Source: Escherichia phage ECP2303. From it: a DNA stretch of 64,000 nt. This document shows, piece after piece, positions 2,230 through 48,121 of the stretch; position 1 is the stretch's first letter, and every line of letters starts with the position of its first letter. A program made the translations under genes and the position numbers. The notes below the pieces were generated by a model. That model had not been told where the DNA came from, did not search any database, and worked only from the letters and a program-made list of their open reading frames with translations. The DNA is taken from the sequence record PP261279.1; one strand, given 5' to 3'.

Positions 2230-5200
2230 TTACTTCAATTTCTCTTGCAATCCAGTAACAACCTCTGTCAATTTTTTAACCTGCTCCTCAAGGGCGGTTA
2301 TTTTATCGTCCTGTTCCCTGCAAACCTGGACAAGCAAGCCTGTTACAGCTGCGTAGTCAACGTTATAGAACCTTTCCTCAGTCATTAAAGGAATGCCGTC
2401 TTGAGTAGGACCTTCTATTTCCTTCCTTTTCACGAAAGATCCTACTGCCTCTGGCAATGCTTCCATAACCTCTTGAGCAATCACGCCTGCATAAGGCATA
2501 CCATTCTCTTTCAAGGTGTAGGTATAGCCTTTCATCTTTCTAATTGCTTCCAGAGCGTTAGGTATGACCTCTATGTTATCCTTCAGGTCCCTATCGGAAC
2601 TTTGACTAACAGTAGTACATTCTACCGTGCCGTTGACAGCAAAATATCTTGATTTAGCCTCATCTGCCTTAGCACCACAGTGGAATACCCAGCTGGCGAC
2701 TGTTGAGTTATCACTTATCTGAAACTCCAGCACATTCTTCCTATCTGCGCCATTACCCCAATAGTACAACCTACCTGTATTAGAAGGCATGTTGGAAGTG
2801 TTGGTAACATCCGCACCACCACCTGTGTGTATTGTGAACTCCGGTTCAAGATTGGATCCTTGAGTTTTTAAAGTGATACCTTTACCACCAAGCTGCTGCC
2901 AATGGCCCCATGTGAAAACACCACCTATCGTTGTTCCATAACGCAGGAATTTTTCTCCAAGATATGTCGTATATTCCTGTACGCAACTCTCTGGAACGTT
3001 GGCATAGTTTCTGTAGACAACGAGAGTACCTGCCTGGGAGCATGGGTAGTTTTTATCAAGTGCGGCCTGAGCATTAGCCTCCTGATGATAAAAACCCTCT
3101 CTATCCCCTTTGTAGTCGTTAAGGTCATTAGTCCCCAGCCCTTGACCACGGTGCTGAATAACTTTGTTCCATGCCCTATGGTTACCACCCTCGATAGATC
3201 TGGTGTATAGCTGATCAAGGCGACCAGCCATTTGGAAGGCATAGTTTCCAGAAAACGCCACAGACAGCCCACCAACAACCATCGAACCTTCAGGTCCGTT
3301 GACATTGCCTGCCATTATTTTAGAAGGGTTGTTAGGACCAAACTGGTTGTTCCAGTCTGCACCAGTATGGCATACAAAACCACCTGGAGCTGAGAAAGTA
3401 CCATCCTTGTTGAAGTTGTAGAATCTATGAGCTGTGCCTACAACATCGCGAACAATAACTTGACCAGCTTCCGGAGTAGATCTGAACTCTGCCTGGCCTT
3501 TGAGACCAGCACCATTACCGCATTTAGAGGTAAACGTACCGTTAGTCAGATCCTCTGTCCCATCAGATGCACACTGGAATCCTGCATTAGAGAATAACGC
3601 CTTTCTAGGACTGCCGTAGCACAAATAGTCAAGACCGTCTGCCCATAGCTCGACTTTTGGCATATTCATTTTGCTCATCACAGCATAGCGTTCAGCAGTG
3701 CCTATATAGTGCCACTGTGTGCCGCCGCCAGTGTAGAACCCTGAAGTACCTTTAAAATCAACAATAGGTCTGGTATTGGTGTTGTTATCTCCAAGAATGG
3801 CAAGATTCAAATCTGCTGACTGAAGAGGTGCAACGAACTTAACCCCATCCTGATTGTCTGTTACAGAGCCAACCTGGTAATCTTGCTCTCTGGTAAACAC
3901 TTCGACAACATTTCTACTTGCGTATATGCTGACAGGGAAAGCACGAGCCTCTACATAGAAAGCAACATACTCTTGTTTACCCCTTGTTGGAGCAACCATC
4001 CCAAGAAGTGCTTTTTCATTCTGGTAGAAATTTACTACCCCGTAGAAAGCGTCCCCTCTGTCTGTCCAACCACCAGTTCTATAGTGACACTGTAAGGTAG
4101 CACAGTTCATAGGGTCACCGCCGGATGACGATCTGGTAACTATGGTAATATCAGTGCCAGTTGCTGGAGCATAGTACGGATCTGTTCTAACGATAATTGG
4201 GTAGTATTTCCCATCTTCCATCCCTGCGGTTCTTGGCAGTGTTAAGAAGTCTTTTACACCTGCTGCTATAGGAACTTTGAACAGATTCTGAGCATCTGCT
4301 AAAGTTGTGGCTCCAGTACCACCTGCGGCGTGAGGTAAAGGTTCCCACTTGGCCTTCCGGTTGTTATAAACACCCCATTCCAAACTGCCGTTACCGGATT
4401 CGTCCATCCCGCCATCCCAGATAACCATCTTGGCGGCTTTCTTGGACCCCCAAAAGCCTCTTTCTGCTCCTGAACTACGGATCCACTCCCCAAGTCCCCA
4501 GTTTGTCAGCTGACCAGTAAGATCCCCAACCTGCATATATTTAGGACAGTCTAATACACCGTCCTCGCGGAAACCTAAATATCTATGAGTTTCAGATCCT
4601 TTTGCACCTTTGTGGAGGTGGATTGTCAACCAAGCCTTATTGTCGTTTCTTACCTCAGAATAGATCCTATAACCATGCTCAAGAATACCATCAGTATTAT
4701 ATTTATCTCCATGGAGAATACCTGAGGCCGATTTAACATCTCCAGAGTATTGAGCTAAGTAAAGGTGCCCGAAGGCTGGCGAGTTGTTTTTACCAAGGCC
4801 GATATGAGATCTGAAAGTATCATCGTTACGAGGTCTGACCATCGGCTGCCATGCAGTCCACTGGTTTGTGTTGGCCTGATAGGTTCTCAAATACCAAACA
4901 TCTACGTTAGAAAATGGATAGTATTCCTGACGACAACCTGTACCGCCGTTAGCATTGTTCTGCCAAACAATCAAGTGACCAGCACCAGAACCTGCAGGGT
5001 AACCATTTGCCTCAGTTGCATAAGCAGTCATCGGCTGGTAGTATACGCCATCCTGATTACCAGTCAAGTTATTGATATTGAAATTTGGCTCAAGGGCTGC
5101 ACGTTGCTTATAGAAAGCACCGATATTGATACGGACTCCAGCGGCATCTCTAGCCCCTGTGCCGCCTTGCTCTATAGCAAGAGGTTGCCACGAAGCTGTT

Positions 5201-6030
5201 TGTTGGTTCCACATACCCCAACGGCCTGTTGCATCAAGCTGCAAGTACCCTGCCGTATTTAAATCATCTCCAGCACGGATAACTGTTCTTGTTGGGTTGT
5301 TTGCCTCTAGGCGTTTAAATTCATCACGAAGTGCTATTCTTTTCGTTGTTGCTACACCGTTGGTTACTGCAATGGTGTACATGGCTCCGGTGGTAGCGCC
5401 ACGGAAAATACCATCAACAGTTGTAGTATCACGACGAGATACCACACCGTTCAGAAATTTTTCACCAGCTGCTACAGAAGGGTAGTTGGTAGTTCTTCCC
5501 TCTTCAATAACTGCAGGGCCAACAAAGTTATCGAGGTGAATAACATCGCCTACAGTGTGCACTGTACCAAAATCTACACGCTGTGCAAGTGCTTTGGCAT
5601 CGTTAGCTGTCTGAACAGTAACATCCATTACATCCTGGACAGACTGCCCTTCGGCTGTCATGATCATAGATGCGCCAATGGTAGATTCCAGCTCCTCCCT
5701 TAATGACGGATCTGTATATACCATCCATGCAGCGTCAGTAATCCCACCATCGGAGTACGGTGAAGACAGTGCAGGAACAGTGTGTGGAAATTCGCCTTTC
5801 CAACGTAGGTAGAGGTCTTCCTCTTCGAAGTAGGCAAAATCCATTGGGCCGTTTAACTTACCACCTTCCTTAAAGGAGATTACATGAGAAACAGTCCCAT
5901 CAACATGGACAACATCGCCAATTTTTACACGACGGGTCAGGTCTGGTTGTTGAACAACCAGGTAATCATCCTCTGTCACTGCGGTAGTGGCAGGAAGAGA
6001 TTCAATTCTGACAACTTTAATATCAGCCAT
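2230..6030 (-). CDS. long tail fiber / tailspike with C-terminal intramolecular chaperone (peptidase S74-type) domain
   Basis: 1266 aa; C-terminus SDRDLKDNIEVI...GYTYT...coiled coil matches the autoproteolytic chaperone domain of endosialidase/L-shaped fibers; N-terminal ~110 aa homologous to the N-terminus of the 222-aa protein at 8665-9333. Confidence 0.8.
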   Translation of the reverse strand: MADIKVVRIESLPATTAVTEDDYLVVQQPDLTRRVKIGDVVHVDGTVSHVISFKEGGKLNGPMDFAYFEEEDLYLRWKGEFPHTVPALSSPYSDGGITDAAWMVYTDPSLREELESTIGASMIMTAEGQSVQDVMDVTVQTANDAKALAQRVDFGTVHTVGDVIHLDNFVGPAVIEEGRTTNYPSVAAGEKFLNGVVSRRDTTTVDGIFRGATTGAMYTIAVTNGVATTKRIALRDEFKRLEANNPTRTVIRAGDDLNTAGYLQLDATGRWGMWNQQTASWQPLAIEQGGTGARDAAGVRINIGAFYKQRAALEPNFNINNLTGNQDGVYYQPMTAYATEANGYPAGSGAGHLIVWQNNANGGTGCRQEYYPFSNVDVWYLRTYQANTNQWTAWQPMVRPRNDDTFRSHIGLGKNNSPAFGHLYLAQYSGDVKSASGILHGDKYNTDGILEHGYRIYSEVRNDNKAWLTIHLHKGAKGSETHRYLGFREDGVLDCPKYMQVGDLTGQLTNWGLGEWIRSSGAERGFWGSKKAAKMVIWDGGMDESGNGSLEWGVYNNRKAKWEPLPHAAGGTGATTLADAQNLFKVPIAAGVKDFLTLPRTAGMEDGKYYPIIVRTDPYYAPATGTDITIVTRSSSGGDPMNCATLQCHYRTGGWTDRGDAFYGVVNFYQNEKALLGMVAPTRGKQEYVAFYVEARAFPVSIYASRNVVEVFTREQDYQVGSVTDNQDGVKFVAPLQSADLNLAILGDNNTNTRPIVDFKGTSGFYTGGGTQWHYIGTAERYAVMSKMNMPKVELWADGLDYLCYGSPRKALFSNAGFQCASDGTEDLTNGTFTSKCGNGAGLKGQAEFRSTPEAGQVIVRDVVGTAHRFYNFNKDGTFSAPGGFVCHTGADWNNQFGPNNPSKIMAGNVNGPEGSMVVGGLSVAFSGNYAFQMAGRLDQLYTRSIEGGNHRAWNKVIQHRGQGLGTNDLNDYKGDREGFYHQEANAQAALDKNYPCSQAGTLVVYRNYANVPESCVQEYTTYLGEKFLRYGTTIGGVFTWGHWQQLGGKGITLKTQGSNLEPEFTIHTGGGADVTNTSNMPSNTGRLYYWGNGADRKNVLEFQISDNSTVASWVFHCGAKADEAKSRYFAVNGTVECTTVSQSSDRDLKDNIEVIPNALEAIRKMKGYTYTLKENGMPYAGVIAQEVMEALPEAVGSFVKRKEIEGPTQDGIPLMTEERFYNVDYAAVTGLLVQVCREQDDKITALEEQVKKLTEVVTGLQEKLK

Positions 6031-13130: not shown

Positions 13131-15470
13131 TTACCAAAGATCTGTTGACATAAAGTTAATATCCTTGTTGTTCTCCCACTCAAGTTTTGCATCAAGTATT
13201 TTGCTAAACTCCCCCTCATCTATTGAAATCGTGATTTTACCATCACTAATCTCTAAAGGGAGCATTTCCATAGTTCTTAATTGAGAAGCAAAACCAGGGC
13301 CACCGGGCAACGGAAGAGTCCCTCCCGGTAAGGTGTCCAAAGGATCAACAAACCCGTTACCTCCAGATATGATATCTTTGCGAATCATATCGCTGATAGT
13401 ATCCAGTTGCTGATTTCTCTCACTCAGTGGGTTGAAACGGTCATTAAATAACTCCCCGGCGCTTAATATTGTACCGATAATACCAAGCTTACCAAGCAGG
13501 CCAACTTTACCACCAGGTGTCTTGAGGCCACCTCCCCCTTTTCCTGCCGCACCACCACCAGATCCTTCTGTGGTAGCTGCACCTGCACCTGCTGCTCCAG
13601 CTGCACCTCTTATAGAACTAAGGAATTTGAAGGTTTTTACAAGCATAGATGCCATGACAAAACCTTTTGTCAGGGCGTTCACTACCAGCATAATGGCAGC
13701 AGCAAACCCTGCCCATTTAGCATAGCTAAAGGTGTCATTAAGCTCTTCAGAATATTCCTTCGTCTTAGCTGTTATGAGTCCCCATTTAATCCCCCATTCA
13801 AGGAAAAACATGCGGATCTTGACTATGGTATTGTTTAGTTCACCAACTACCCAGTTGAGACCTCTCACAAAACCACTAACAAAATCACCAGAGGCATCCC
13901 ACACAAATTGCAAAGTCTCACCAGTGCGAATCAGTGTATAATAGAACTCTGTTAGTTCATCAGCCCAACGGGTGAATAGTTTCTGACGAGACAGTTCAAT
14001 GAAGGTTTTCAGTCTGTTTTCTGCCAGTACGTTAGACTTCTGCATTCTTTCATAACCAGCTGCAGATGCCTCGTTCATGTACTTAGCCACATACTTCATG
14101 ATCTTGGCTGTCTTAACCTCACCTTTCTTCATCATGTCCATGAACTGATCCATGGATAGTTCAGAAAGACCAAAAGCCTCTTTGGTGGCTTTGATAAAAG
14201 GTTCGTATGCACCAGGCAATGCTTCAGCAAGTTGTTGCTTCAGTTCTTCGGACATTACCTGTCCTTTACCGAGCATTTGCTGGATTGCCATGATGCCACG
14301 CTGGTATTTTACCTCATCTGCACCGTAAGCAGCAGCATACTGTGAGTATGCAGAGAATAGCTCATGCACCTCTTGATTTGTCATCTGGTTTTTGGCGTTT
14401 ACCGCCATCTGGGCGTAACCTTGAAGACCAGATTTGAGATCAAAACCAAGACGCATAGCCTCTTGCTGGACAAACGCAACCTCACTGTTGGCTTTGTTTG
14501 GATCTCCAGTAACAGCAGTAAGAGCAGCACTTGCCCCCTCCATCATGTGACCAGATCTGTTCACAGCAGTAAATCCAGAGAAAGCCGTATACGCAGCTGT
14601 TGCATTAATAACAGACCTACGTAAGTCTCTCATGGCATCACCAAGTGTAAGCGTTTGGCTGGTGGCGCTTTTAAATCCAGACTGCAGAGCTGACAGGTGG
14701 GCGTTAAAGGTTGACTTTTTCATCTCTCCGCGAGCAAACCTGGACTCTAACTCTGAGTATCCTGGCAAGCTTCCACGGAATCCGGCCCCATACTTGGCAG
14801 AAAGTCTTATCGCAGAGTTGTAGAGGTGGGTTCTCCTTGCCTCACGATCCGACATAAGCTTATTATCCATACCAGCTTTACTGTCTCTTCTTAGCTGCCT
14901 ATGATAACGATTCATAGCGGCTGTCTGAGCTTTCACAAGGTTAGGGTCGGAAGCCACACCACCCATATTAGGGTTACCTGGGATATACTTGAAAGATTTG
15001 GCATTAGCCAAAACTCTTGCCTTAGGTGCCTTATAACCGCCGTAAGACACTGGTGCAGATTTGGTAGCCTTTTTGGCCTCTTTAGCTTGCTGCTGGTAGA
15101 ACTTACGCATCCTAGCCATTTCTGGATTTTTAGCGGTAAGATTACCCACAGCTTGTTTACGTCTCGCGTTCTCCCTACGTTCTATTGCAGCCCTTACTGC
15201 AGCCTCTTTCTTGGCCTGTGCTACGCTCTCCCTGTGCAGTTTAGCATTTGCCTGATATTGCTGTCTGGCAACCCGCTGCATTGTTTGCTGGGTTTTAACA
15301 GCCACTGCCTGCCATCTACTCATTGGGTTGGCTGAGTTAAAATCCTCGCCCAGTTTCCTGAACTCCCTCCCAATACTGCGAATTTTCTCTACAGCTTTTT
15401 TGTAGGAGGAGTTCTCTATCTCAAAGCCAATCTTGTTGACTGTTGTGGCAACTATTTTGTTTGTAGCCAT
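13131..15470 (-). CDS. tail tape measure protein
   Basis: 779 aa; long helical, coiled-coil-rich sequence with a Gly-rich segment (GAAGAGAATTEGSGGGAAGKGGGG); located after the chaperone pair. Confidence 0.75.
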   Translation of the reverse strand: MATNKIVATTVNKIGFEIENSSYKKAVEKIRSIGREFRKLGEDFNSANPMSRWQAVAVKTQQTMQRVARQQYQANAKLHRESVAQAKKEAAVRAAIERRENARRKQAVGNLTAKNPEMARMRKFYQQQAKEAKKATKSAPVSYGGYKAPKARVLANAKSFKYIPGNPNMGGVASDPNLVKAQTAAMNRYHRQLRRDSKAGMDNKLMSDREARRTHLYNSAIRLSAKYGAGFRGSLPGYSELESRFARGEMKKSTFNAHLSALQSGFKSATSQTLTLGDAMRDLRRSVINATAAYTAFSGFTAVNRSGHMMEGASAALTAVTGDPNKANSEVAFVQQEAMRLGFDLKSGLQGYAQMAVNAKNQMTNQEVHELFSAYSQYAAAYGADEVKYQRGIMAIQQMLGKGQVMSEELKQQLAEALPGAYEPFIKATKEAFGLSELSMDQFMDMMKKGEVKTAKIMKYVAKYMNEASAAGYERMQKSNVLAENRLKTFIELSRQKLFTRWADELTEFYYTLIRTGETLQFVWDASGDFVSGFVRGLNWVVGELNNTIVKIRMFFLEWGIKWGLITAKTKEYSEELNDTFSYAKWAGFAAAIMLVVNALTKGFVMASMLVKTFKFLSSIRGAAGAAGAGAATTEGSGGGAAGKGGGGLKTPGGKVGLLGKLGIIGTILSAGELFNDRFNPLSERNQQLDTISDMIRKDIISGGNGFVDPLDTLPGGTLPLPGGPGFASQLRTMEMLPLEISDGKITISIDEGEFSKILDAKLEWENNKDINFMSTDLW

Positions 15471-15524
15471 GCTTTCCTCATAATAAAAAGGGCCAGATCC
15501 CAGAAAAGGAATCCGGCCCTTAGA

Positions 15525-15773
15525 TTATCCTCTCCTGCGCTTAGCTTTCGCAGCAGCTGCGGCAGCCTTCTGCTCCCGCTCCATTTCCCTGTTTTGGACG
15601 GTATCTAGGAATTCTTCGATATCAAGATACTCACAGAGCTTCAGGAAATACGCCATATCTGCAAGATTTAGCGATTCAAAATTTTCCCCTTTGAAATTCT
15701 TGAGCACCCTGCACCAAAGAAAGTCGAACCAGTTAAGTGAACTGTTCTTAGCTGCCCACTCACTGGCCCTCAC
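15525..15773 (-). CDS. tail assembly chaperone C-terminal extension (reached by -1 frameshift)
   Basis: 82-aa frame lies in the -1 frame relative to the upstream chaperone ORF and stays open back across the slippery site; classic G/GT-type arrangement between tube and tape measure genes. Confidence 0.5.
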   Translation of the reverse strand: MRASEWAAKNSSLNWFDFLWCRVLKNFKGENFESLNLADMAYFLKLCEYLDIEEFLDTVQNREMEREQKAAAAAAKAKRRRG

Positions 15774-15784
15774 AACAACCTTGC

Positions 15785-16258
15785 TTATTCCTGCTCTTCC
15801 GGAGTCTGATCCAGATTGTTCACCTGCTGGATCATACCCATCTGCTGTAACATCTCCAGAAGGCTTCCTAAACCGTCTTGTGTGAAAAAACAGCCGTAGT
15901 TAACCTCCAGAACCTTACCTGCCAGCTTAATCATCTCCAGCAGATGCCCTGCAAACACAACATCAGGGTTAAGCTTATCCACACCATCCACGGTAATATC
16001 TTCGAACAAGATTTTAAATAACTCTTCAATAGAGTTATCATCAAGTTCTTGGAACAGGTAAGCTAGGGCTGTAGGAAGGACCTCTGCCATATTCTGACCG
16101 CCTGAGAGAATAGATCCACCGATAGCACCTAGCGGGACAGCCACAATCTTACCGATTTTAGGCATGTTTTTCATTGCTTTCATCGGTCCCCAGTGGGTGA
16201 TCACAAAGTTGTGCCCTGCTAAATCAATCTCTGTTGTAGGTCTAAAGTTTATAGCCAT
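15785..16258 (-). CDS. tail assembly chaperone
   Basis: 157-aa acidic protein between the tube and tape measure genes; carries in-frame heptamer T-TTT-TTC near its 3' end. Confidence 0.55.
   Translation of the reverse strand: MAINFRPTTEIDLAGHNFVITHWGPMKAMKNMPKIGKIVAVPLGAIGGSILSGGQNMAEVLPTALAYLFQELDDNSIEELFKILFEDITVDGVDKLNPDVVFAGHLLEMIKLAGKVLEVNYGCFFTQDGLGSLLEMLQQMGMIQQVNNLDQTPEEQE
15884..15890 (-). other. programmed -1 ribosomal frameshift slippery heptamer (U UUU UUC)
   Basis: Plus-strand gaaaaaa equals minus-strand TTTTTTC, in phase X-XXY-YYZ with the chaperone frame (TGT TTT TTC); the -1 frame is open from here into the 15525-15773 ORF. Confidence 0.5.
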
Positions 16259-16371
16259 TTTATAGCATCCTTATTAGTCATGTTGTGCACCATATTTGTG
16301 TATTTTACCATGATTACGGTGCATTGTCAATTTAACCTTTCAAGCAACTCAAGAACGTGTGTCAAAACCAT

Positions 16372-16402
16372 AAAAGCAAAAAGCCCCACCCGAAGGTGAG
16401 GC
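16372..16402 (-). terminator. Rho-independent terminator after the tube gene
   Basis: Minus-strand RNA GCCUCACC-UUCG-GGUGGGGC followed by UUUUUGCUUUU; the G-U pair exists only on the minus transcript. Confidence 0.6.
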
Positions 16403-16420
16403 CTATGCTAAAGTGTGCCC

Positions 16421-16894
16421 TTAGATAATACCTGCAAGACCTGCGAGGCCAGTGAGAGCACCAGTGATGTTGTCACGGTTGAGCCATGCATCCAGAATAC
16501 CGATATCCCAGTCCAGCTGACCTACTTCGGTTCCGTAAGTTAGGTCAGGCTGTTTCTGGATCCAACCGATTGTAGCAATGCCAGGGCCCTGGCTACCTTC
16601 CAGCAGAACCGGGAAGAATACCAGACCAGTAATAGATGCCTGTTTCTGCCAGTCAGAAAGGTAAGCGTTCCATACAGAAGTGTTCTGCAAGGATACAGTC
16701 ATAACACCAGATTGGTTACGAGACAGAGCTGCAGACATTTCACCATCCACACCAACGTGAGGGTAGATGTTGTCTTCGTTTCTTGAAACAACGATCTTGG
16801 TGTCAGCAGCGAAGCCAGTGACACGCTGCTGCATCAGATACAGTTTGACCTTTTTAGGGTCATACGCATAAGGAGTTAAAATTTGAGTTTCCAT
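16421..16894 (-). CDS. tail tube protein (putative)
   Basis: 157 aa immediately downstream of the sheath-like gene and upstream of a terminator and the chaperones. Confidence 0.5.
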   Translation of the reverse strand: METQILTPYAYDPKKVKLYLMQQRVTGFAADTKIVVSRNEDNIYPHVGVDGEMSAALSRNQSGVMTVSLQNTSVWNAYLSDWQKQASITGLVFFPVLLEGSQGPGIATIGWIQKQPDLTYGTEVGQLDWDIGILDAWLNRDNITGALTGLAGLAGII

Positions 16895-16904
16895 CTAGTC
16901 TTCC

Positions 16905-18281
16905 TTATTCAGTCATTGCAACAGCATTGGTGGATTTAGAACCAACTTTGTCCAGAAGGACGTTGATCCGGATACGAACGAAGTGCAGGGCGTTGTTATA
17001 CACCAGTTCTACTTTCACACCTTCCAGAACACGAGCAGCCAACTGATTGGTTGGGATTTCTGCACGTTTAGGAACTGTGATGATCGGGTCGTAGAATACA
17101 TTATTGTCTTCGTCAAAACCTGTCAGGATCGCACCATTTTTAATGCCAGTATTGATCGGGTTGTTCATCAGAACAGACTTGATAACCGGAAGATCATCAT
17201 CAGACATCTTCATGCTTAAGCCCATATTGGAGCGGCGATGCATGTACCCAAACATGGACTCTTCAGATCTGAACTTGATCCAGTGTGCAAAACGGATAGC
17301 GTCTGCATACTGACCTGAAGCACACTTACCTTCCCAGAAAGCGCCAACACCGTTAATCATTCTATAGAAGTTAACGTGGTTTTCCCAAATCGCCATACGC
17401 TGAGTTAAAGTCAGGGATGGTGCAATAACGCCCGGCATCTGTTTTAAATGCAAGCTGTCGCCGTAAGACGGATCGTTGGATGCCATAGCGCCTACGATAC
17501 CACCCTCTGGAAAATCTTTATCCGCACGAGGATCGTACATGCCGACACTATCATATTGTGCAGCCATCAGTTTGGTGGCGATGTTATTTTCTTTGCCAGT
17601 CACATCTTCTGCAGTAGAATAGACATGGAGCTTGTAGTTAGCCTGAGCCCACTTAGCACATGCTTCAATGTCGGTGTGGTCTTCATGGCACAGGAAGTAC
17701 CAATTATCACGCTCAGCATTGATCTTATCAACTACTGTAGAAGGTTTTTCAGAATTGGCGATATTTTTGATTGTATAGTTACCAGTATGATAACCAACAG
17801 TGCAGTCACCAGTGATGGTAATAACACCTTCAGAAGCCTCTACAGTGATATCGTTCAAGTTATCATCTGCTTCGATTTTAGTCTTCATTGATTCTGCAAT
17901 CTGAGTTGCACCTGTTCCACCAGAGATAGGTACTATCAGAGAAGTATTGTAGCCACCTTTTGCAATGGTCATTACGACATCGGTATCAGCTGCGGCAGCA
18001 ATACCTTTAAAATCTACAGTGGTTTTTTCTTTAGCCTGTCTGCCGATCATAACGTATTGTGGAGGGAATACACCGCCGAAAGCTTTTGCTGCAAACTCAT
18101 ACGCTGCAGAGCCTTGTGCGAAACCGTCTTCCACCATCTGGTCCAGCTCCGCATACACGCGAGCTCGCTCAGTAAAGTTGTTGTGGATAGCGATGAACAG
18201 CGGGGTTTCGAAACCTACAGTGTCAATAGGCTGGGTTCCGAGGTTAACTGTAACATCTACCACTTTATCTAAATATGGCAT
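16905..18281 (-). CDS. tail sheath protein (putative) or major tail protein
   Basis: 458 aa, first gene of the tail block; size and order relative to tube, chaperone and tape measure fit a contractile-tail sheath. Confidence 0.5.
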   Translation of the reverse strand: MPYLDKVVDVTVNLGTQPIDTVGFETPLFIAIHNNFTERARVYAELDQMVEDGFAQGSAAYEFAAKAFGGVFPPQYVMIGRQAKEKTTVDFKGIAAAADTDVVMTIAKGGYNTSLIVPISGGTGATQIAESMKTKIEADDNLNDITVEASEGVITITGDCTVGYHTGNYTIKNIANSEKPSTVVDKINAERDNWYFLCHEDHTDIEACAKWAQANYKLHVYSTAEDVTGKENNIATKLMAAQYDSVGMYDPRADKDFPEGGIVGAMASNDPSYGDSLHLKQMPGVIAPSLTLTQRMAIWENHVNFYRMINGVGAFWEGKCASGQYADAIRFAHWIKFRSEESMFGYMHRRSNMGLSMKMSDDDLPVIKSVLMNNPINTGIKNGAILTGFDEDNNVFYDPIITVPKRAEIPTNQLAARVLEGVKVELVYNNALHFVRIRINVLLDKVGSKSTNAVAMTE

Positions 18282-18353: not shown

Positions 18354-18905
18354 TTACTGACCACTGTCTGTAACCGATTTATCAGAATTGGGTGAAGGGA
18401 AGTGCGTGGTTATTTCAGCCTTAATTCCCTGAAGATCCTCAAAAGCCCCAATGTCTGTCTCAACAAACCTTACGTTAAATGTCAGCATTACCGTGGCTCT
18501 ATTTTCATACGTCTGCTTATTCAACGGCACCCTTTGAGGGGAGATTGTTGAATTGTTAGAGTAAGCAAAGCACGACCCCAGAGGGAAATACTTGTCATAA
18601 AACATTGGAAGATTTATTGCTTGCAATACTCTGCTAAGTGCAGCATGTGCCCTGCCACGATAAGCTGTTAACAGATAGGTAACAGTGTAACTGTGTGTTA
18701 CGTAAGCATTACCCTCCGCATCTTGAAACTCATTATCTTCCCAAGTGGTTGGATTGATCGCCAAGGTTTGTAAAAGTACAAACTCACCTTCCGGCTTCGG
18801 TATGGTAGAGCTTTCTGCCAGAACTACAGTTCTTCCTGTGGCAACCTTGACAAGCTTAGCAATGGTTGTTTCAAGATCAGAAAAAACTTTTTCGAAAGCT
18901 TCCAT
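18354..18905 (-). CDS. hypothetical head-tail joining protein
   Basis: 183-aa ORF between head and tail blocks. Confidence 0.3.
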   Translation of the reverse strand: MEAFEKVFSDLETTIAKLVKVATGRTVVLAESSTIPKPEGEFVLLQTLAINPTTWEDNEFQDAEGNAYVTHSYTVTYLLTAYRGRAHAALSRVLQAINLPMFYDKYFPLGSCFAYSNNSTISPQRVPLNKQTYENRATVMLTFNVRFVETDIGAFEDLQGIKAEITTHFPSPNSDKSVTDSGQ

Positions 18906-47138: not shown

Positions 47139-48121
47139 TGCTAAAACTGTGCACTGCAAAGATTATTGCCGACAGTATTTCCGAGAAAGGTAAGCGTATC
47201 ACCACTTTTGAGCTAGAGTATCCTCGAATTATTCACTCAGAGCTTATGACACATCGAGTGTTCAGCCGAAACGCCATGTCTTCTCGTGCAGTTCCTGTCG
47301 GTAAGATGCTGCAGCAGATCGTGGAGAATCCGGCAATGCCAGTTCGCTTCGGTGTAAATAAGCGAGGGATGGAAGATGGTGGGGAACACGATCAAAAGAT
47401 CCGTGTAGAGTATACCGACATGGAGTTAACTCCTGAAGAGTTTTGGAAAGAAGCTGCAAAAAACGCCGCGTGGCATGCAGAGAAGTTCGCCCTTGCTGGT
47501 TACCATAAGCAGGTATGTAATCGCTTAGTGGAGCCGTTTCAGCGCATGAAAACAGTTGTAACAAGCACCGAGTGGAATAATTTTTTCCACCTGCGTTGCT
47601 GGCACGATGCTGATCCTACGATTCAGATGCTGGCTAATTGTATGTGGGATGCTCTTATGAATAGCACTCCTGAAACCCTTAAACCGGGTCAATGGCACAC
47701 CCCATATGTAGAGCACGTTTATTTGGACGGTGAGTTTAACTACGCTGTACGTGACACAGAAGGGAAGCTATGCATTCTCGATACTAAAGAAGCCCTATCT
47801 ATTAGTGCTAGTTGCTGTGCACAAGTATCTTATCGAAATATTGACAGCACGTTTGAAAAGGCAGACAGTGTGGCTAAAAAATTGATTGGCGGGGATCGTA
47901 TTCATGCAAGCCCTTACGAGCACCAGGCAACACCTATGGATCACGATAACGCAATGGAACGTTTAAACTACTACCTGTCTTCATGTGAAATCACACAGGA
48001 CAGCTGTGTTTGGCAGGAAGGTGTAACCCATCAAGACCGTGATGGTAAATTCTGGTCTGCCAACTTTTGTGGGTGGGTTCAGCACAGACAGCTGCTTAAT
48101 AACCACTTCATGAAAGGTTAA
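47138..48121 (+). CDS. thyX: flavin-dependent thymidylate synthase (ThyX-like)
   Basis: ELMTHRVFSRNAMSSRA resembles the ThyX RHR-x7-S signature; 327 aa. Confidence 0.65.
   Translation: MLKLCTAKIIADSISEKGKRITTFELEYPRIIHSELMTHRVFSRNAMSSRAVPVGKMLQQIVENPAMPVRFGVNKRGMEDGGEHDQKIRVEYTDMELTPEEFWKEAAKNAAWHAEKFALAGYHKQVCNRLVEPFQRMKTVVTSTEWNNFFHLRCWHDADPTIQMLANCMWDALMNSTPETLKPGQWHTPYVEHVYLDGEFNYAVRDTEGKLCILDTKEALSISASCCAQVSYRNIDSTFEKADSVAKKLIGGDRIHASPYEHQATPMDHDNAMERLNYYLSSCEITQDSCVWQEGVTHQDRDGKFWSANFCGWVQHRQLLNNHFMKG

What the first reader, a model, noticed from the sequence alone, without database searches (positions are those of the whole stretch)
15525..16258. Programmed -1 frameshift in the tail assembly chaperone pair
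An in-phase U UUU UUC heptamer (plus coordinates 15884-15890) lies ~100 nt before the stop of the 157-aa chaperone ORF, and the -1 frame is open from that site through the following 82-aa ORF. This would yield a long fusion chaperone alongside the short form, the conserved strategy between tube and tape measure genes in tailed phages.
Basis: partly seen in the sequence, partly recalled or inferred. Interest (0 to 1): 0.4.

Follow-up and report, generated by a model that had tools for sequence, protein, structure and literature searches.

The report
Frameshift site in phage tail chaperone
This rV5-like E. coli phage almost certainly makes a short and a long tail-assembly chaperone from one message by a programmed -1 ribosomal slip on U UUU UUC; the trick is textbook for tailed phages, but the database records I inspected for this phage group do not annotate it.

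Summary
On the minus strand, a 157-aa tail assembly chaperone gene (15785-16258) lies between the tube and tape-measure genes. It holds an in-phase T TTT TTC (15890..15884), 32 codons before its stop. The -1 frame opens 3 codons upstream of that site and stays open for 121 codons to 15525, giving a predicted 244-aa fusion.

In this one genome the coincidence is only modestly unlikely. The comparative evidence is decisive:
- The same heptamer, phase and long -1 ORF occur in all 50 related loci examined, down to about 29% protein identity.
- The three synonymous positions inside the heptamer never vary, while neighbouring ones drift.
- A Rheinheimera phage has G GGA AAG at the equivalent place.
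- The conserved core of the -1 protein lies upstream of any usable start codon in most lineages, so it cannot be made by independent initiation.

No conserved downstream RNA structure was found. None of the 18 GenBank/RefSeq records inspected annotates a joined CDS; rV5 itself gives the -1 ORF a CTG "start". This is a new, unannotated member of the well-known lambda G/GT and P2 E/E+E' kind: real, but ordinary. No experiment has yet detected the fusion protein.

The parts
15785..16258 (-). Short tail assembly chaperone ORF (zero frame; lambda gpG analogue), 157 aa, 17.3 kDa, pI 4.5
   Evidence: Pfam PF21822 Phage_TAC_15 E 1.1e-23. phrog_3840 'tail assembly chaperone' E 6e-69. Translation. All 73 database homologues are 149-159 aa.
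15884..15890 (-). Slippery heptamer U UUU UUC, in phase (X XXY YYZ), the proposed -1 shift site
   Evidence: Sequence and phase. Identical heptamer and phase in 50 of 50 eligible related loci and 32 unique contexts: wobble T 32/32 across Cys, Pro and Ser codons, TTT 32/32, TTC 32/32. Background codon usage gives P(TGT TTT TTC | Cys-Phe-Phe) = 0.13. Highly shift-prone class in E. coli (PMC4066793).
15525..15884 (-). -1 frame extension (lambda T-domain analogue), 119 aa after the slip, ending at TAA 15527-15525. It comprises an RFR motif, a Gly/Ser/Asp-rich linker, a conserved helical domain (KNSSLxWFDFLW...) and a basic C-terminal tail (KAKRRRG)
   Evidence: Translation. phrog_10409 E 9e-51 over the last 82 aa. 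Alignment of the -1 products of 12 lineages. The AlphaFold model shows a disordered linker and a helical C-part at low confidence.
15785..15890 (-). Dual-coding overlap of the zero frame (tail of the short form) and the -1 frame (start of the extension)
   Evidence: Both frames are conserved as protein. Invariant CGGTTT lies 9 nt 3' of the heptamer and reads Gly-Phe in frame 0 and Arg-Phe-Arg in frame -1. The frame-0 Gly codon there is GGT in 19 of 19 contexts and the Phe codon is always TTC.
15900..15902 (-). TAA stop in the -1 frame, 3 codons 5' of the heptamer, so the -1 ORF opens just before the shift site
   Evidence: In relatives the -1 frame opens 3-31 codons before the site.
15771..15773 (-). 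GTG, the first possible start codon in the -1 frame and the nominal start of the '82-aa ORF'. Probably not used
   Evidence: It lies 39 codons after the slip site with only AAGG upstream. The first start codon falls 32-85 codons after the site in relatives, inside or after the conserved domain. Annotated starts in relatives disagree.
15904..15908 (-). GGAGG (Shine-Dalgarno-like), 13 nt 5' of the heptamer. A possible stimulator, not established
   Evidence: GGAG(G) at this position in 7 of 13 lineages, GAGG alone in one more, absent in 5. Glu codon GAG in 24 of 29 contexts against a 0.49 background. Confounded with conserved Leu-Glu codons. Spacing is within the 6-17 nt range used by Sharma et al..
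16302..16330 (-). Sigma-70-type promoter TTGACA-17-TAAAAT (with TG) in front of the chaperone gene
   Evidence: 11 of 12 matches. The rV5 record annotates promoter P51 at the homologous place.
16381..16404 (-). Intrinsic terminator after the tube gene
15488..15521 (-). Intrinsic terminator 3 nt after the -1 frame stop and before the tape measure gene
   Evidence: 14-bp stem plus T-run. The rV5 record annotates a rho-independent terminator here.
16421..16894 (-). Tail tube gene (context)
   Evidence: PF11681 KPP10_Orf10. rV5 gp52 is the tail tube by mass spectrometry.
13131..15470 (-). Tape measure protein gene (context)
   Evidence: PF20155 TMP_3 E 4e-18. phrog_5255 E 0.

Best explanation
The chaperone locus is translated in two ways.

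Most ribosomes read frame 0 from ATG 16258 to the stop at 15785 and make the 157-aa acidic short chaperone. This step is shown by sequence and profile matches.

A minority of ribosomes have Phe-tRNAs on UUU (P site) and UUC (A site). These slip one base 5' on U UUU UUC (15890..15884), re-pair to UUU UUU, and continue in the -1 frame to the stop at 15525. The product is a 244-aa protein: the first 125 residues of the chaperone, a flexible Gly/Ser/Asp linker, a conserved helical C-terminal domain and a basic tail. This step is inferred from conservation and has not been observed.

By analogy with lambda gpG/gpGT and P2 gpE/gpE+E' (my own knowledge of Xu, Hendrix & Duda 2004 and later work), I infer three things. 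The C-terminal domain of the long form binds the tape measure protein. The shared N-terminal domain coats it and recruits tube subunits. The fixed low shift frequency sets the short:long ratio, and neither form ends up in the virion.

The slip appears to rely on the heptamer alone. An upstream GGAGG may help. No conserved downstream RNA structure is detectable.
For: - Anatomy and phase.
- Chaperone identity and the tube-chaperone-tape measure gene order.
- Conservation in unbiased tblastn hits: 12 GenBank phages had the in-phase T TTT TTC plus a -1 ORF of 111-154 codons (L014/WPEC1, 154, runs on past a breakpoint in its T-domain). They come from five named Vequintavirinae genera, two unclassified members of that subfamily, Stephanstirmvirinae and an Aeromonas phage, at 29-58% identity. 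The thirteenth, Barbavirus, has G GGA AAG and a 95-codon -1 ORF whose product aligns with the others.
- All 38 IMG/VR loci carry the same site.
- Synonymous sites within the heptamer are invariant in 32 unique contexts across three different preceding amino acids. Nearby Tyr, Gly, Glu and Phe codons vary. Background codon usage is close to 50:50.
- The -1 frame opens only 3-31 codons before the site. The conserved domain lies 5' of the first start codon in L007, L008, L010, L011, L015 and L016.
- Dual-coding constraint (RFR in frame -1, GF in frame 0) begins immediately after the site.
- No homologue among 5.8 billion proteins has the halves fused in one frame, and the -1 part is only ever called as 80-82-aa fragments.
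- U_UU.U_UU.C is among the most efficient heptamers in E. coli, is under-represented in ordinary genes, and is used by IS elements (PMC4066793).
- The modelled N-domain ends exactly at the slip site (helix 106-125) and is followed by a disordered linker.
- rV5 genes 50 and 51 have no mass-spectrometry evidence in virions, while tube and sheath do.
- Sister families are proposed to use a -1 shift on a GTTTTT motif at the same locus (PMC12846349).
Against: - There is no experimental detection of the fusion product in any rV5-like phage. The rV5 paper does not mention it.
- No conserved downstream hairpin or pseudoknot was found. RNAalifold gives 0 pairs, and single-sequence z-scores are -1.9 and -0.4. 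Efficiency may therefore be low and is unknown.
- Within this one genome the coincidence of a heptamer with a long -1 ORF is only moderately improbable, about 0.2 expected.
- The IMG/VR set was seeded with the peptide ...[CP]FF, so it is biased toward Phe-Phe.
- The C-terminal domain model has low confidence, and the fold search did not clearly recover known chaperone structures.
- Binding of the extension to the tape measure is pure analogy.
Confidence: 0.85

Rival explanations
1. Transcriptional slippage. RNA polymerase occasionally adds one extra U while copying the T6 run. A subset of mRNAs would then encode the same 244-aa fusion in one continuous frame, and the ribosome would not slip.
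For: The site is a homopolymeric run of six T. One inserted U would give exactly the same protein (...CFFH...). The invariant wobble T that extends the run from 5 to 6 would help this mechanism too. No downstream RNA stimulator for ribosomal slippage was found.
Against: - Six residues is short for efficient polymerase slippage. From my own knowledge, known cases use runs of about 8-9 or more.
- Position 7 is C in 32 of 32 contexts, although TTT would be synonymous and would lengthen the run.
- The Barbavirus homologue has G GGA AAG, which is not a homopolymer run but is a classic tandem-slippage heptamer, at the same place.
- U_UU.U_UU.C is experimentally an efficient ribosomal shift site in E. 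coli.
Confidence: 0.07
2. There are two separate genes and no recoding. The downstream ORF is translated on its own, from GTG 15773 or from the CTG used in the rV5 record, to give an independent small protein that works with the chaperone.
For: Most GenBank records annotate it this way: an 82-aa 'hypothetical protein', or rV5 gp050 of 122 aa from a CTG. phrog_10409 is an 82-residue family. According to the title of Vladimirov et al. 2022, T4-like phages make their chaperone proteins by a mechanism other than frameshifting (cited).
Against: - The first ATG/GTG/TTG in the -1 frame lies 32-85 codons after the slip site. It falls inside or after the most conserved block in six of twelve lineages, and in Klebsiella KpS8 it would leave only 43 aa.
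- Annotated starts disagree between relatives, and some records omit the ORF.
- The GTG in the window has only a weak AAGG upstream.
- The -1 peptide is conserved (RFR motif) from the heptamer onward, where no start exists.
- This model does not explain the invariant heptamer.
Confidence: 0.05
3. Chance or a non-functional feature. The heptamer simply encodes a conserved Phe-Phe, and the -1 ORF is fortuitously open or is a decaying remnant.
For: Phe-Phe is conserved at protein level. About 0.2 heptamers with a -1 ORF of at least 121 codons are expected per window by chance.
Against: Synonymous sites are invariant, including the wobble of three different preceding amino acids. The -1 ORF is open and conserved as protein in all 51 loci, at down to 29% identity. 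Barbavirus has a different canonical heptamer at the same place.
Confidence: 0.02

Closest known systems
Phage lambda gpG / gpGT tail assembly chaperones (Levin et al. 1993; Xu, Hendrix & Duda 2004, Mol Cell 16:11, cited in PMC8785237)
   Same: Two overlapping ORFs lie between the major tail (tube) gene and the tape measure gene. [quoted passage not shown] A -1 shift gives a long form that shares the N-terminal domain. No RNA stimulator is required. Neither product is found in virions (for rV5).
   Different: Lambda has a non-contractile tail and uses G GGA AAG. Here the tail is contractile and the heptamer is U UUU UUC; only the Barbavirus relative uses G GGA AAG. The Pfam family differs (Phage_TAC_15), and I did not detect sequence similarity. 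Lambda's fusion is proven experimentally; this one is not.
Phage P2 gpE / gpE+E' (-1 shift on TTTTTTG in the FETUD tail operon; Christie et al. 2002; my own knowledge)
   Same: It is a contractile-tail phage with the order sheath, tube, chaperone pair, tape measure. The slippery run is U-rich (U UUU UUG). The extension is in the -1 frame.
   Different: The last base differs (G against C). No sequence homology was detected here: the fusion found no P2-like hits. The P2 extension is shorter.
Proposed -1 frameshift at a conserved GTTTTT motif in the chaperone locus of Vandenendeviridae (Pakpunavirus Adele) and Andersonviridae (PMC12846349)
   Same: These are sister lineages with the same virion architecture (DUF3383 sheath, KPP10-type tube). 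The downstream ORF is routinely annotated as 'hypothetical'. [quoted passage not shown] The -1 frame is uninterrupted in all alleles. The evidence is also purely in silico.
   Different: That paper analysed Vandenendeviridae and Andersonviridae, not Vequintavirinae or Stephanstirmvirinae. The motif is described as GTTTTT, whereas here the full in-phase heptamer is [T] TTT TTC preceded by G, C or a further run. I did not test homology of the two chaperone families directly.
E. coli dnaX tau/gamma frameshift (A AAA AAG with an upstream Shine-Dalgarno-like element and a downstream hairpin; my own knowledge, and the context of PMC4066793)
   Same: It is a tandem -1 slippage on a heptamer in E. coli. 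The possible upstream SD-like stimulator at about 10-14 nt matches the GGAGG found 13 nt upstream here.
   Different: The dnaX shift gives a shorter product and needs a strong hairpin. Here the product is longer, no hairpin is conserved, and the SD-like element is present in only about 60% of lineages.

Membership tests
G/GT-type tail assembly chaperone with programmed -1 frameshift (Xu, Hendrix & Duda 2004) | Two overlapping ORFs located between the major tail/tube gene and the tape measure gene | tested here: met
   Order is tube 16421-16894, ORF 15785-16258, -1 ORF to 15525, tape measure 13131-15470.
G/GT-type tail assembly chaperone with programmed -1 frameshift (Xu, Hendrix & Duda 2004) | [quoted passage not shown] | tested here: met
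   T TTT TTC at 15890..15884, codons 123-125 of 157.
G/GT-type tail assembly chaperone with programmed -1 frameshift (Xu, Hendrix & Duda 2004) | Downstream ORF in the -1 frame, open from the slip site, without its own conserved initiation signals | tested here: met
   The -1 frame is open for 121 codons. The first start codon is 39 codons downstream here and 32-85 in relatives, inside or after the conserved domain in six of twelve lineages.
G/GT-type tail assembly chaperone with programmed -1 frameshift (Xu, Hendrix & Duda 2004) | Slip site and frame arrangement conserved among diverged relatives, with suppressed synonymous variation at the site | tested here: met
   50 of 50 loci and 32 unique contexts are invariant at the three synonymous positions. 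Barbavirus has G GGA AAG instead.
G/GT-type tail assembly chaperone with programmed -1 frameshift (Xu, Hendrix & Duda 2004) | Both the short and the frameshifted long product are made in infected cells, at a fixed low ratio | not testable with these tools
   Needs a western blot, mass spectrometry or a reporter assay. No paper in the library reports it for rV5-like phages.
G/GT-type tail assembly chaperone with programmed -1 frameshift (Xu, Hendrix & Duda 2004) | Products needed for tail assembly but absent from mature virions; the long form's extension binds the tape measure | tested here: inconclusive
   The rV5 virion proteome lists tube, sheath and tape measure with mass-spectrometry evidence but not genes 50 or 51. 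That fits, but it is negative evidence only. Binding and requirement cannot be tested here.
Pfam PF21822 Phage_TAC_15 (tail assembly chaperone family) | Profile match above the curated gathering threshold | tested here: met
   84.5 bits against a cut-off of 22, E 1.1e-23, covering residues 15-129 and profile positions 2-125 of 127. All 73 homologues carry PF21822.
Structurally characterised tail assembly chaperone fold (for example XkdN-like YqbN, PDB 3klu) | Significant structural similarity of the N-domain model to a solved chaperone | tested here: inconclusive
   [not shown]
Stimulated bacterial -1 frameshift signal (dnaX / IS3 type) | Conserved downstream hairpin or pseudoknot 5-9 nt after the heptamer | tested here: not met
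   RNAalifold on 10 lineages gives 0 consensus pairs. Single-sequence folds are inconsistent, with z-scores of -0.4 to -1.9.
Stimulated bacterial -1 frameshift signal (dnaX / IS3 type) | Conserved upstream Shine-Dalgarno-like element 6-17 nt before the heptamer | tested here: inconclusive
   GGAGG lies 13 nt upstream in the window. GGAG(G) is present in 7 of 13 lineages, GAGG alone in one more, and it is absent in 5. There is a mild GAG excess, 24 of 29 against a 0.49 background, confounded by conserved Leu-Glu.

The most novel reading that the evidence does not exclude
The signal may be more than a bare heptamer. The absolutely invariant U6-C is never U7, although that would be synonymous. 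Together with the frequent GGAG 13 nt upstream and the invariant CGGUUU 9 nt downstream, it could form a structure-free stimulatory context. That context might act through mRNA-rRNA or nascent-peptide contacts to tune the short:long chaperone ratio, and it would have been frozen across at least two phage subfamilies and beyond. Alternatively, the same site could work partly by polymerase slippage.
Probability: 0.12. Interest if true: 0.4.

Novelty: new member of a known kind. Interest (0 to 1): 0.25.

Why it matters
The practical value is mostly in annotation. None of the 18 records I inspected for rV5-like and related phages (Vequintavirinae, Stephanstirmvirinae and relatives) annotates the frameshift. 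Many of these phages are therapy or biocontrol candidates, and hundreds of related genome records exist. The records call the second half a "hypothetical protein" with arbitrary starts, omit it, or in the type phage rV5 give it a CTG start. Recognising the frameshift gives that ORF a function, corrects the gene models, and adds a clean, deeply conserved U UUU UUC example with no detectable RNA stimulator to the catalogue of bacterial recoding sites. It does not change how we think tails are assembled.

Tried and rejected
- Downstream stimulatory RNA. Single-sequence folds gave z-scores of -1.9 and -0.4, per-lineage MFE structures disagreed, and RNAalifold on 10 lineages gave no pairs. I rejected it as a conserved feature.
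- Upstream GGAGG as a stimulator. It is present in only about 60% of lineages and is confounded with coding. I left it open.
- Other frameshift candidates in the window. The only other heptamer with a -1 ORF over 100 codons (3111..3105) lies in a spurious ORF nested in the 1266-aa gene 2230-6030. Rejected.
- Fused or deposited long forms. I searched 5.8 billion proteins with the fusion and with the -1 part and found none.
- A solved-structure relative by sequence. None found.
- Fold comparison of an AlphaFold model. The N-domain had moderate confidence, the C-part was poor, and no convincing match to a solved chaperone appeared.
- Published descriptions. Six library searches and the rV5 paper with its supplements gave none for this phage group. 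The only related item is the in-silico proposal for sister families (PMC12846349).
- Synonymous-rate analysis among the near-identical Vequintavirus genomes. I did not pursue it, because the sequences I held were about 98-100% identical and had too few substitutions.
Full report
**What the window is.** The 1-kb stretch around the finding is 100% identical to Escherichia phage ECP2309. It is 98-99% identical to FV3, rV5-derived and many other Vequintavirus genomes. The genes here run on the minus strand. Profile searches give this order:
- neck/tail terminator, 18354-18905
- sheath, 16905-18281 (DUF3383, phrog_205)
- tube, 16421-16894 (KPP10_Orf10)
- a 157-aa protein, 15785-16258, matching Pfam Phage_TAC_15 (E 1e-23, 84.5 bits against a cut-off of 22) and phrog_3840 "tail assembly chaperone" (E 6e-69)
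- a small ORF, 15525-15773 (phrog_10409, unknown function)
- the 779-aa tape measure protein, 13131-15470
- baseplate components

**Checking the observation.** The zero frame reads ...AAC TAC GGC TGT TTT TTC ACA CAA... (N Y G C F F T Q). T(15890) TTT TTC(15884) is therefore an in-phase X XXY YYZ heptamer at exactly the coordinates given. It ends 32 codons before the stop of the 157-aa ORF. In the -1 frame there is a TAA at 15902-15900, three codons 5' of the heptamer. From there the frame stays open for 121 codons to TAA 15527-15525. The "82-aa ORF" is simply the part of this open frame after its first possible start codon, GTG 15773. A -1 slip would give a 244-aa, 27.1-kDa protein beside the 157-aa, 17.3-kDa short form.

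**Is it more than chance?** Within this genome alone, only moderately.
- ATG-ORFs of at least 100 aa hold 62 in-phase heptamers, and their -1 frames are open for a median of about 9 codons.
- Only two exceed 100 codons. The other lies in a spurious ORF nested inside the 1266-aa gene 2230-6030.
- About 0.4% of in-gene positions have at least 121 open -1 codons, so about 0.2 such heptamers would be expected per window.

**Comparative evidence: GenBank relatives.** A tblastn search with the predicted fusion found 489 phage records. The matches came in two pieces, meaning a frame change, and covered about 90% of the query in relatives down to 29% identity. I fetched 13 diverged representatives besides the near-identical records:
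- Vequintavirinae: Seunavirus, Henunavirus, Mydovirus, Certrevirus, and the unclassified A73 and SSBI34
- Stephanstirmvirinae: Phapecoctavirus, Justusliebigvirus and Tr1
- WPEC1, an Aeromonas phage and a Rheinheimera Barbavirus

Twelve of the thirteen have T TTT TTC in phase at the homologous position, and from it the -1 frame is open for 111-154 codons (the 154 is WPEC1, whose frame runs on past a breakpoint in its T-domain). The thirteenth, Barbavirus, has G GGA AAG, the lambda heptamer. Its -1 ORF of 95 codons gives a product that aligns with the others.

**Comparative evidence: viral contigs and codon choice.** A scan of IMG/VR added 38 loci, all with the same site. That scan was seeded with the peptide ...[CP]FF, so it is biased toward Phe-Phe, but not toward any particular codons.
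- All 50 eligible loci matched, giving 32 unique 110-nt contexts.
- The codon before the run is TGT (18), CCT (13) or AGT (1). The wobble T is kept across three different amino acids.
- The first Phe is TTT in 32 of 32 and the second is TTC in 32 of 32.
- Nearby conserved residues drift: Tyr TAC 24 / TAT 8, Glu GAG 24 / GAA 5, Gly GGC/GGA/GGT, and a nearby Phe TTC 9 / TTT 4.
- This phage's codon usage is near 50:50 for Phe and Cys, so Cys-Phe-Phe would be written TGT TTT TTC only 13% of the time per independent lineage.

**The main rival: independent translation of the downstream ORF.** I aligned the -1 products of 12 lineages and marked the first ATG/GTG/TTG in each.
- The first start lies 32-85 codons after the slip site.
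- The most conserved block (...A-I/L-E-Y-x-x-K-N-S-S-L-x-W-F-D-Y-L-W...) lies wholly or largely upstream of the first start in six lineages: Henunavirus, Mydovirus, SSBI34, Certrevirus, Aeromonas and Barbavirus. In KpS8, initiation could yield only the last 43 residues.
- The peptide directly after the slip (H/R-x-R-R-F-R) is conserved where no start exists.
- The nucleotides CGGTTT, 9 nt after the heptamer, are invariant. They encode Gly-Phe in frame 0 and Arg-Phe-Arg in frame -1. This is a dual-coding signature, and it shows the -1 frame is read from the site onward.
- Annotators' start choices for this ORF differ from record to record, and several records omit it.
- In 5.8 billion database proteins the N-half appears only as 149-159-aa proteins and the -1 half only as 80-82-aa fragments. 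The two are never fused in one frame.

**Ribosome or polymerase?** One extra U added by RNA polymerase on the T6 run would give the same protein. I rate this unlikely, for four reasons.
- The run is short.
- Position 7 is always C, although a seventh T would be synonymous.
- Barbavirus has a non-homopolymeric tandem-slippage heptamer at the same place.
- U_UU.U_UU.C is in the most shift-prone heptamer class measured in E. coli (H_HH.U_UU.Y). It shifts at more than 0.1% without stimulators, is under-represented in ordinary genes, and is used by IS elements (Sharma et al. 2014, PMC4066793).

Only RNA sequencing can exclude polymerase slippage.

**Stimulators.** No conserved downstream structure exists. 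Single-sequence folds are weak and inconsistent (z -1.9 and -0.4), and RNAalifold on ten lineages predicts no pairs. A GGAGG lies 13 nt upstream (15908..15904). That spacing is within the range that stimulates -1 shifts in E. coli (6-17 nt in PMC4066793). GGAG(G) is present in 7 of 13 lineages, GAGG alone in one more, and it overlaps conserved Leu-Glu codons. I treat it as a possibility only. From my own knowledge, lambda G/GT also needs no RNA structure.

**Architecture of the products.** An AlphaFold model of the fusion has mean pLDDT 57.7, with the N-domain at 56-89 and the C-part below 50 for lack of alignment depth.
- It places the slip site at the end of the last N-domain helix (residues 106-125).
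- A disordered Gly/Ser/Asp-rich linker follows; its length varies between lineages.
- A helical region comes next, ending in a conserved basic tail (KAKRRRG).

The chaperone assignment therefore rests on the Pfam and PHROG profile matches and on gene order, not on fold.

**Transcription context.**
- A terminator follows the tube gene (16404..16381).
- A near-consensus promoter, TTGACA-17-TAAAAT, precedes the chaperone gene (16330..16302).
- A second terminator sits 3 nt after the -1 stop (15521..15488).

The rV5 record annotates the same promoter and the downstream terminator. The chaperone pair is thus a compact unit whose 3' boundary is set by the end of the -1 ORF, not by the end of the short form.

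**What is already known.** The rV5 genome and proteome paper never mentions a frameshift, a chaperone or a tape measure. Its gene table gives genes 50 and 51 no function and no mass-spectrometry evidence, while tube gp52 and sheath gp53 have it. That fits non-structural chaperones. The rV5 RefSeq record annotates gp050 as a 122-aa protein overlapping gp051 by 109 nt and starting at a CTG one codon before the U-run (LFFHTRRF...). The depositors saw the open frame but not the recoding. None of the 18 records inspected carries a joined CDS. Library searches found no description for Vequintavirinae or Stephanstirmvirinae. A 2025 paper argues in silico for a conserved -1 shift on a GTTTTT motif at the same locus in the related Vandenendeviridae and Andersonviridae (PMC12846349). 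The general phenomenon is textbook (Xu, Hendrix & Duda 2004, cited).

**Verdict.** I put the probability at about 0.85 that this is a genuine programmed -1 ribosomal frameshift producing a gpG/gpGT-like chaperone pair. It is a new, so far unannotated member of a well-known kind. It has annotation value and gives a clean structure-free U UUU UUC example, but it would not surprise a specialist. The shown steps are the anatomy, phase, family membership of the short form, deep conservation, the lack of an independent start, and dual coding. The inferred steps are the slip itself, its efficiency, the binding of the extension to the tape measure, and the need for both forms.

Noticed in passing
L055:1015-1383 (NC_011041 rV5, 47514-47882, minus strand): The type phage's record annotates gp050 as a 122-aa stand-alone protein that starts at a non-canonical CTG one codon before the U-run and overlaps the chaperone gene by 109 nt. 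This is the entire -1 ORF, annotated without any slippage note.
   Followed up: yes
window 16404..16381, 16330..16302, 15521..15488 (minus strand): The chaperone pair forms its own small transcription unit. A terminator follows the tube gene, a near-consensus sigma-70 promoter (TTGACA-17-TAAAAT) comes next, and a strong terminator sits 3 nt after the -1 frame stop, before the tape measure gene. How the tape measure gene is then transcribed (read-through or its own promoter) was not examined.
   Followed up: partly
L014 (PV659873 Escherichia phage WPEC1) about 1575-2039: The -1 ORF departs from the conserved T-domain midway (after ...GVDYLF) into a twice-repeated VNKNYIWIFKYSILFVE.KKDTRSM sequence. 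No tape measure gene follows; reverse-strand ORFs and a tRNA-Gln lie there instead. It looks like a rearrangement or assembly breakpoint inside the chaperone locus.
   Followed up: no
L016 (MK719713 Rheinheimera phage Barba8A) 1824-1830: This distant relative has G GGA AAG, the lambda G/GT heptamer, instead of T TTT TTC at the equivalent place. Its -1 product aligns with the others, so the slip signal appears to have been replaced while the recoding was kept.
   Followed up: partly
L002, L012, L013 and L034-L054 (Stephanstirmvirinae-like loci), at the slip site: These lineages carry C CCT TTT TTC, which is two overlapping in-phase heptamers (C CCT TTT and T TTT TTC). The shift could occur at either of two adjacent positions.
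   Followed up: no
window 15866..15875 (minus strand), 9 nt 3' of the heptamer: CGGTTT is invariant in Vequintavirinae, and GGTTTC is shared with Stephanstirmvirinae. It is dual-coded as Gly-Phe in frame 0 and Arg-Phe-Arg in frame -1. Coding constraint explains it, but a role in the shift itself was not excluded.
   Followed up: partly
window 2925-3305 (minus strand), inside gene 2230-6030: An in-phase AAAGGGG heptamer (3111..3105) has a 293-codon -1 extension. It turned out to lie in a spurious 126-aa ORF nested in a 1266-aa gene, so it is not a frameshift candidate.
   Followed up: yes
one search hit list (MG065646, MG065647, MG065654 and others): About 18-23 records named 'Campylobacter phage', with host given as C. 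jejuni, are about 98% identical to this E. coli rV5-like phage over the region. The host labels look doubtful.
   Followed up: no
[not shown]
   Followed up: no
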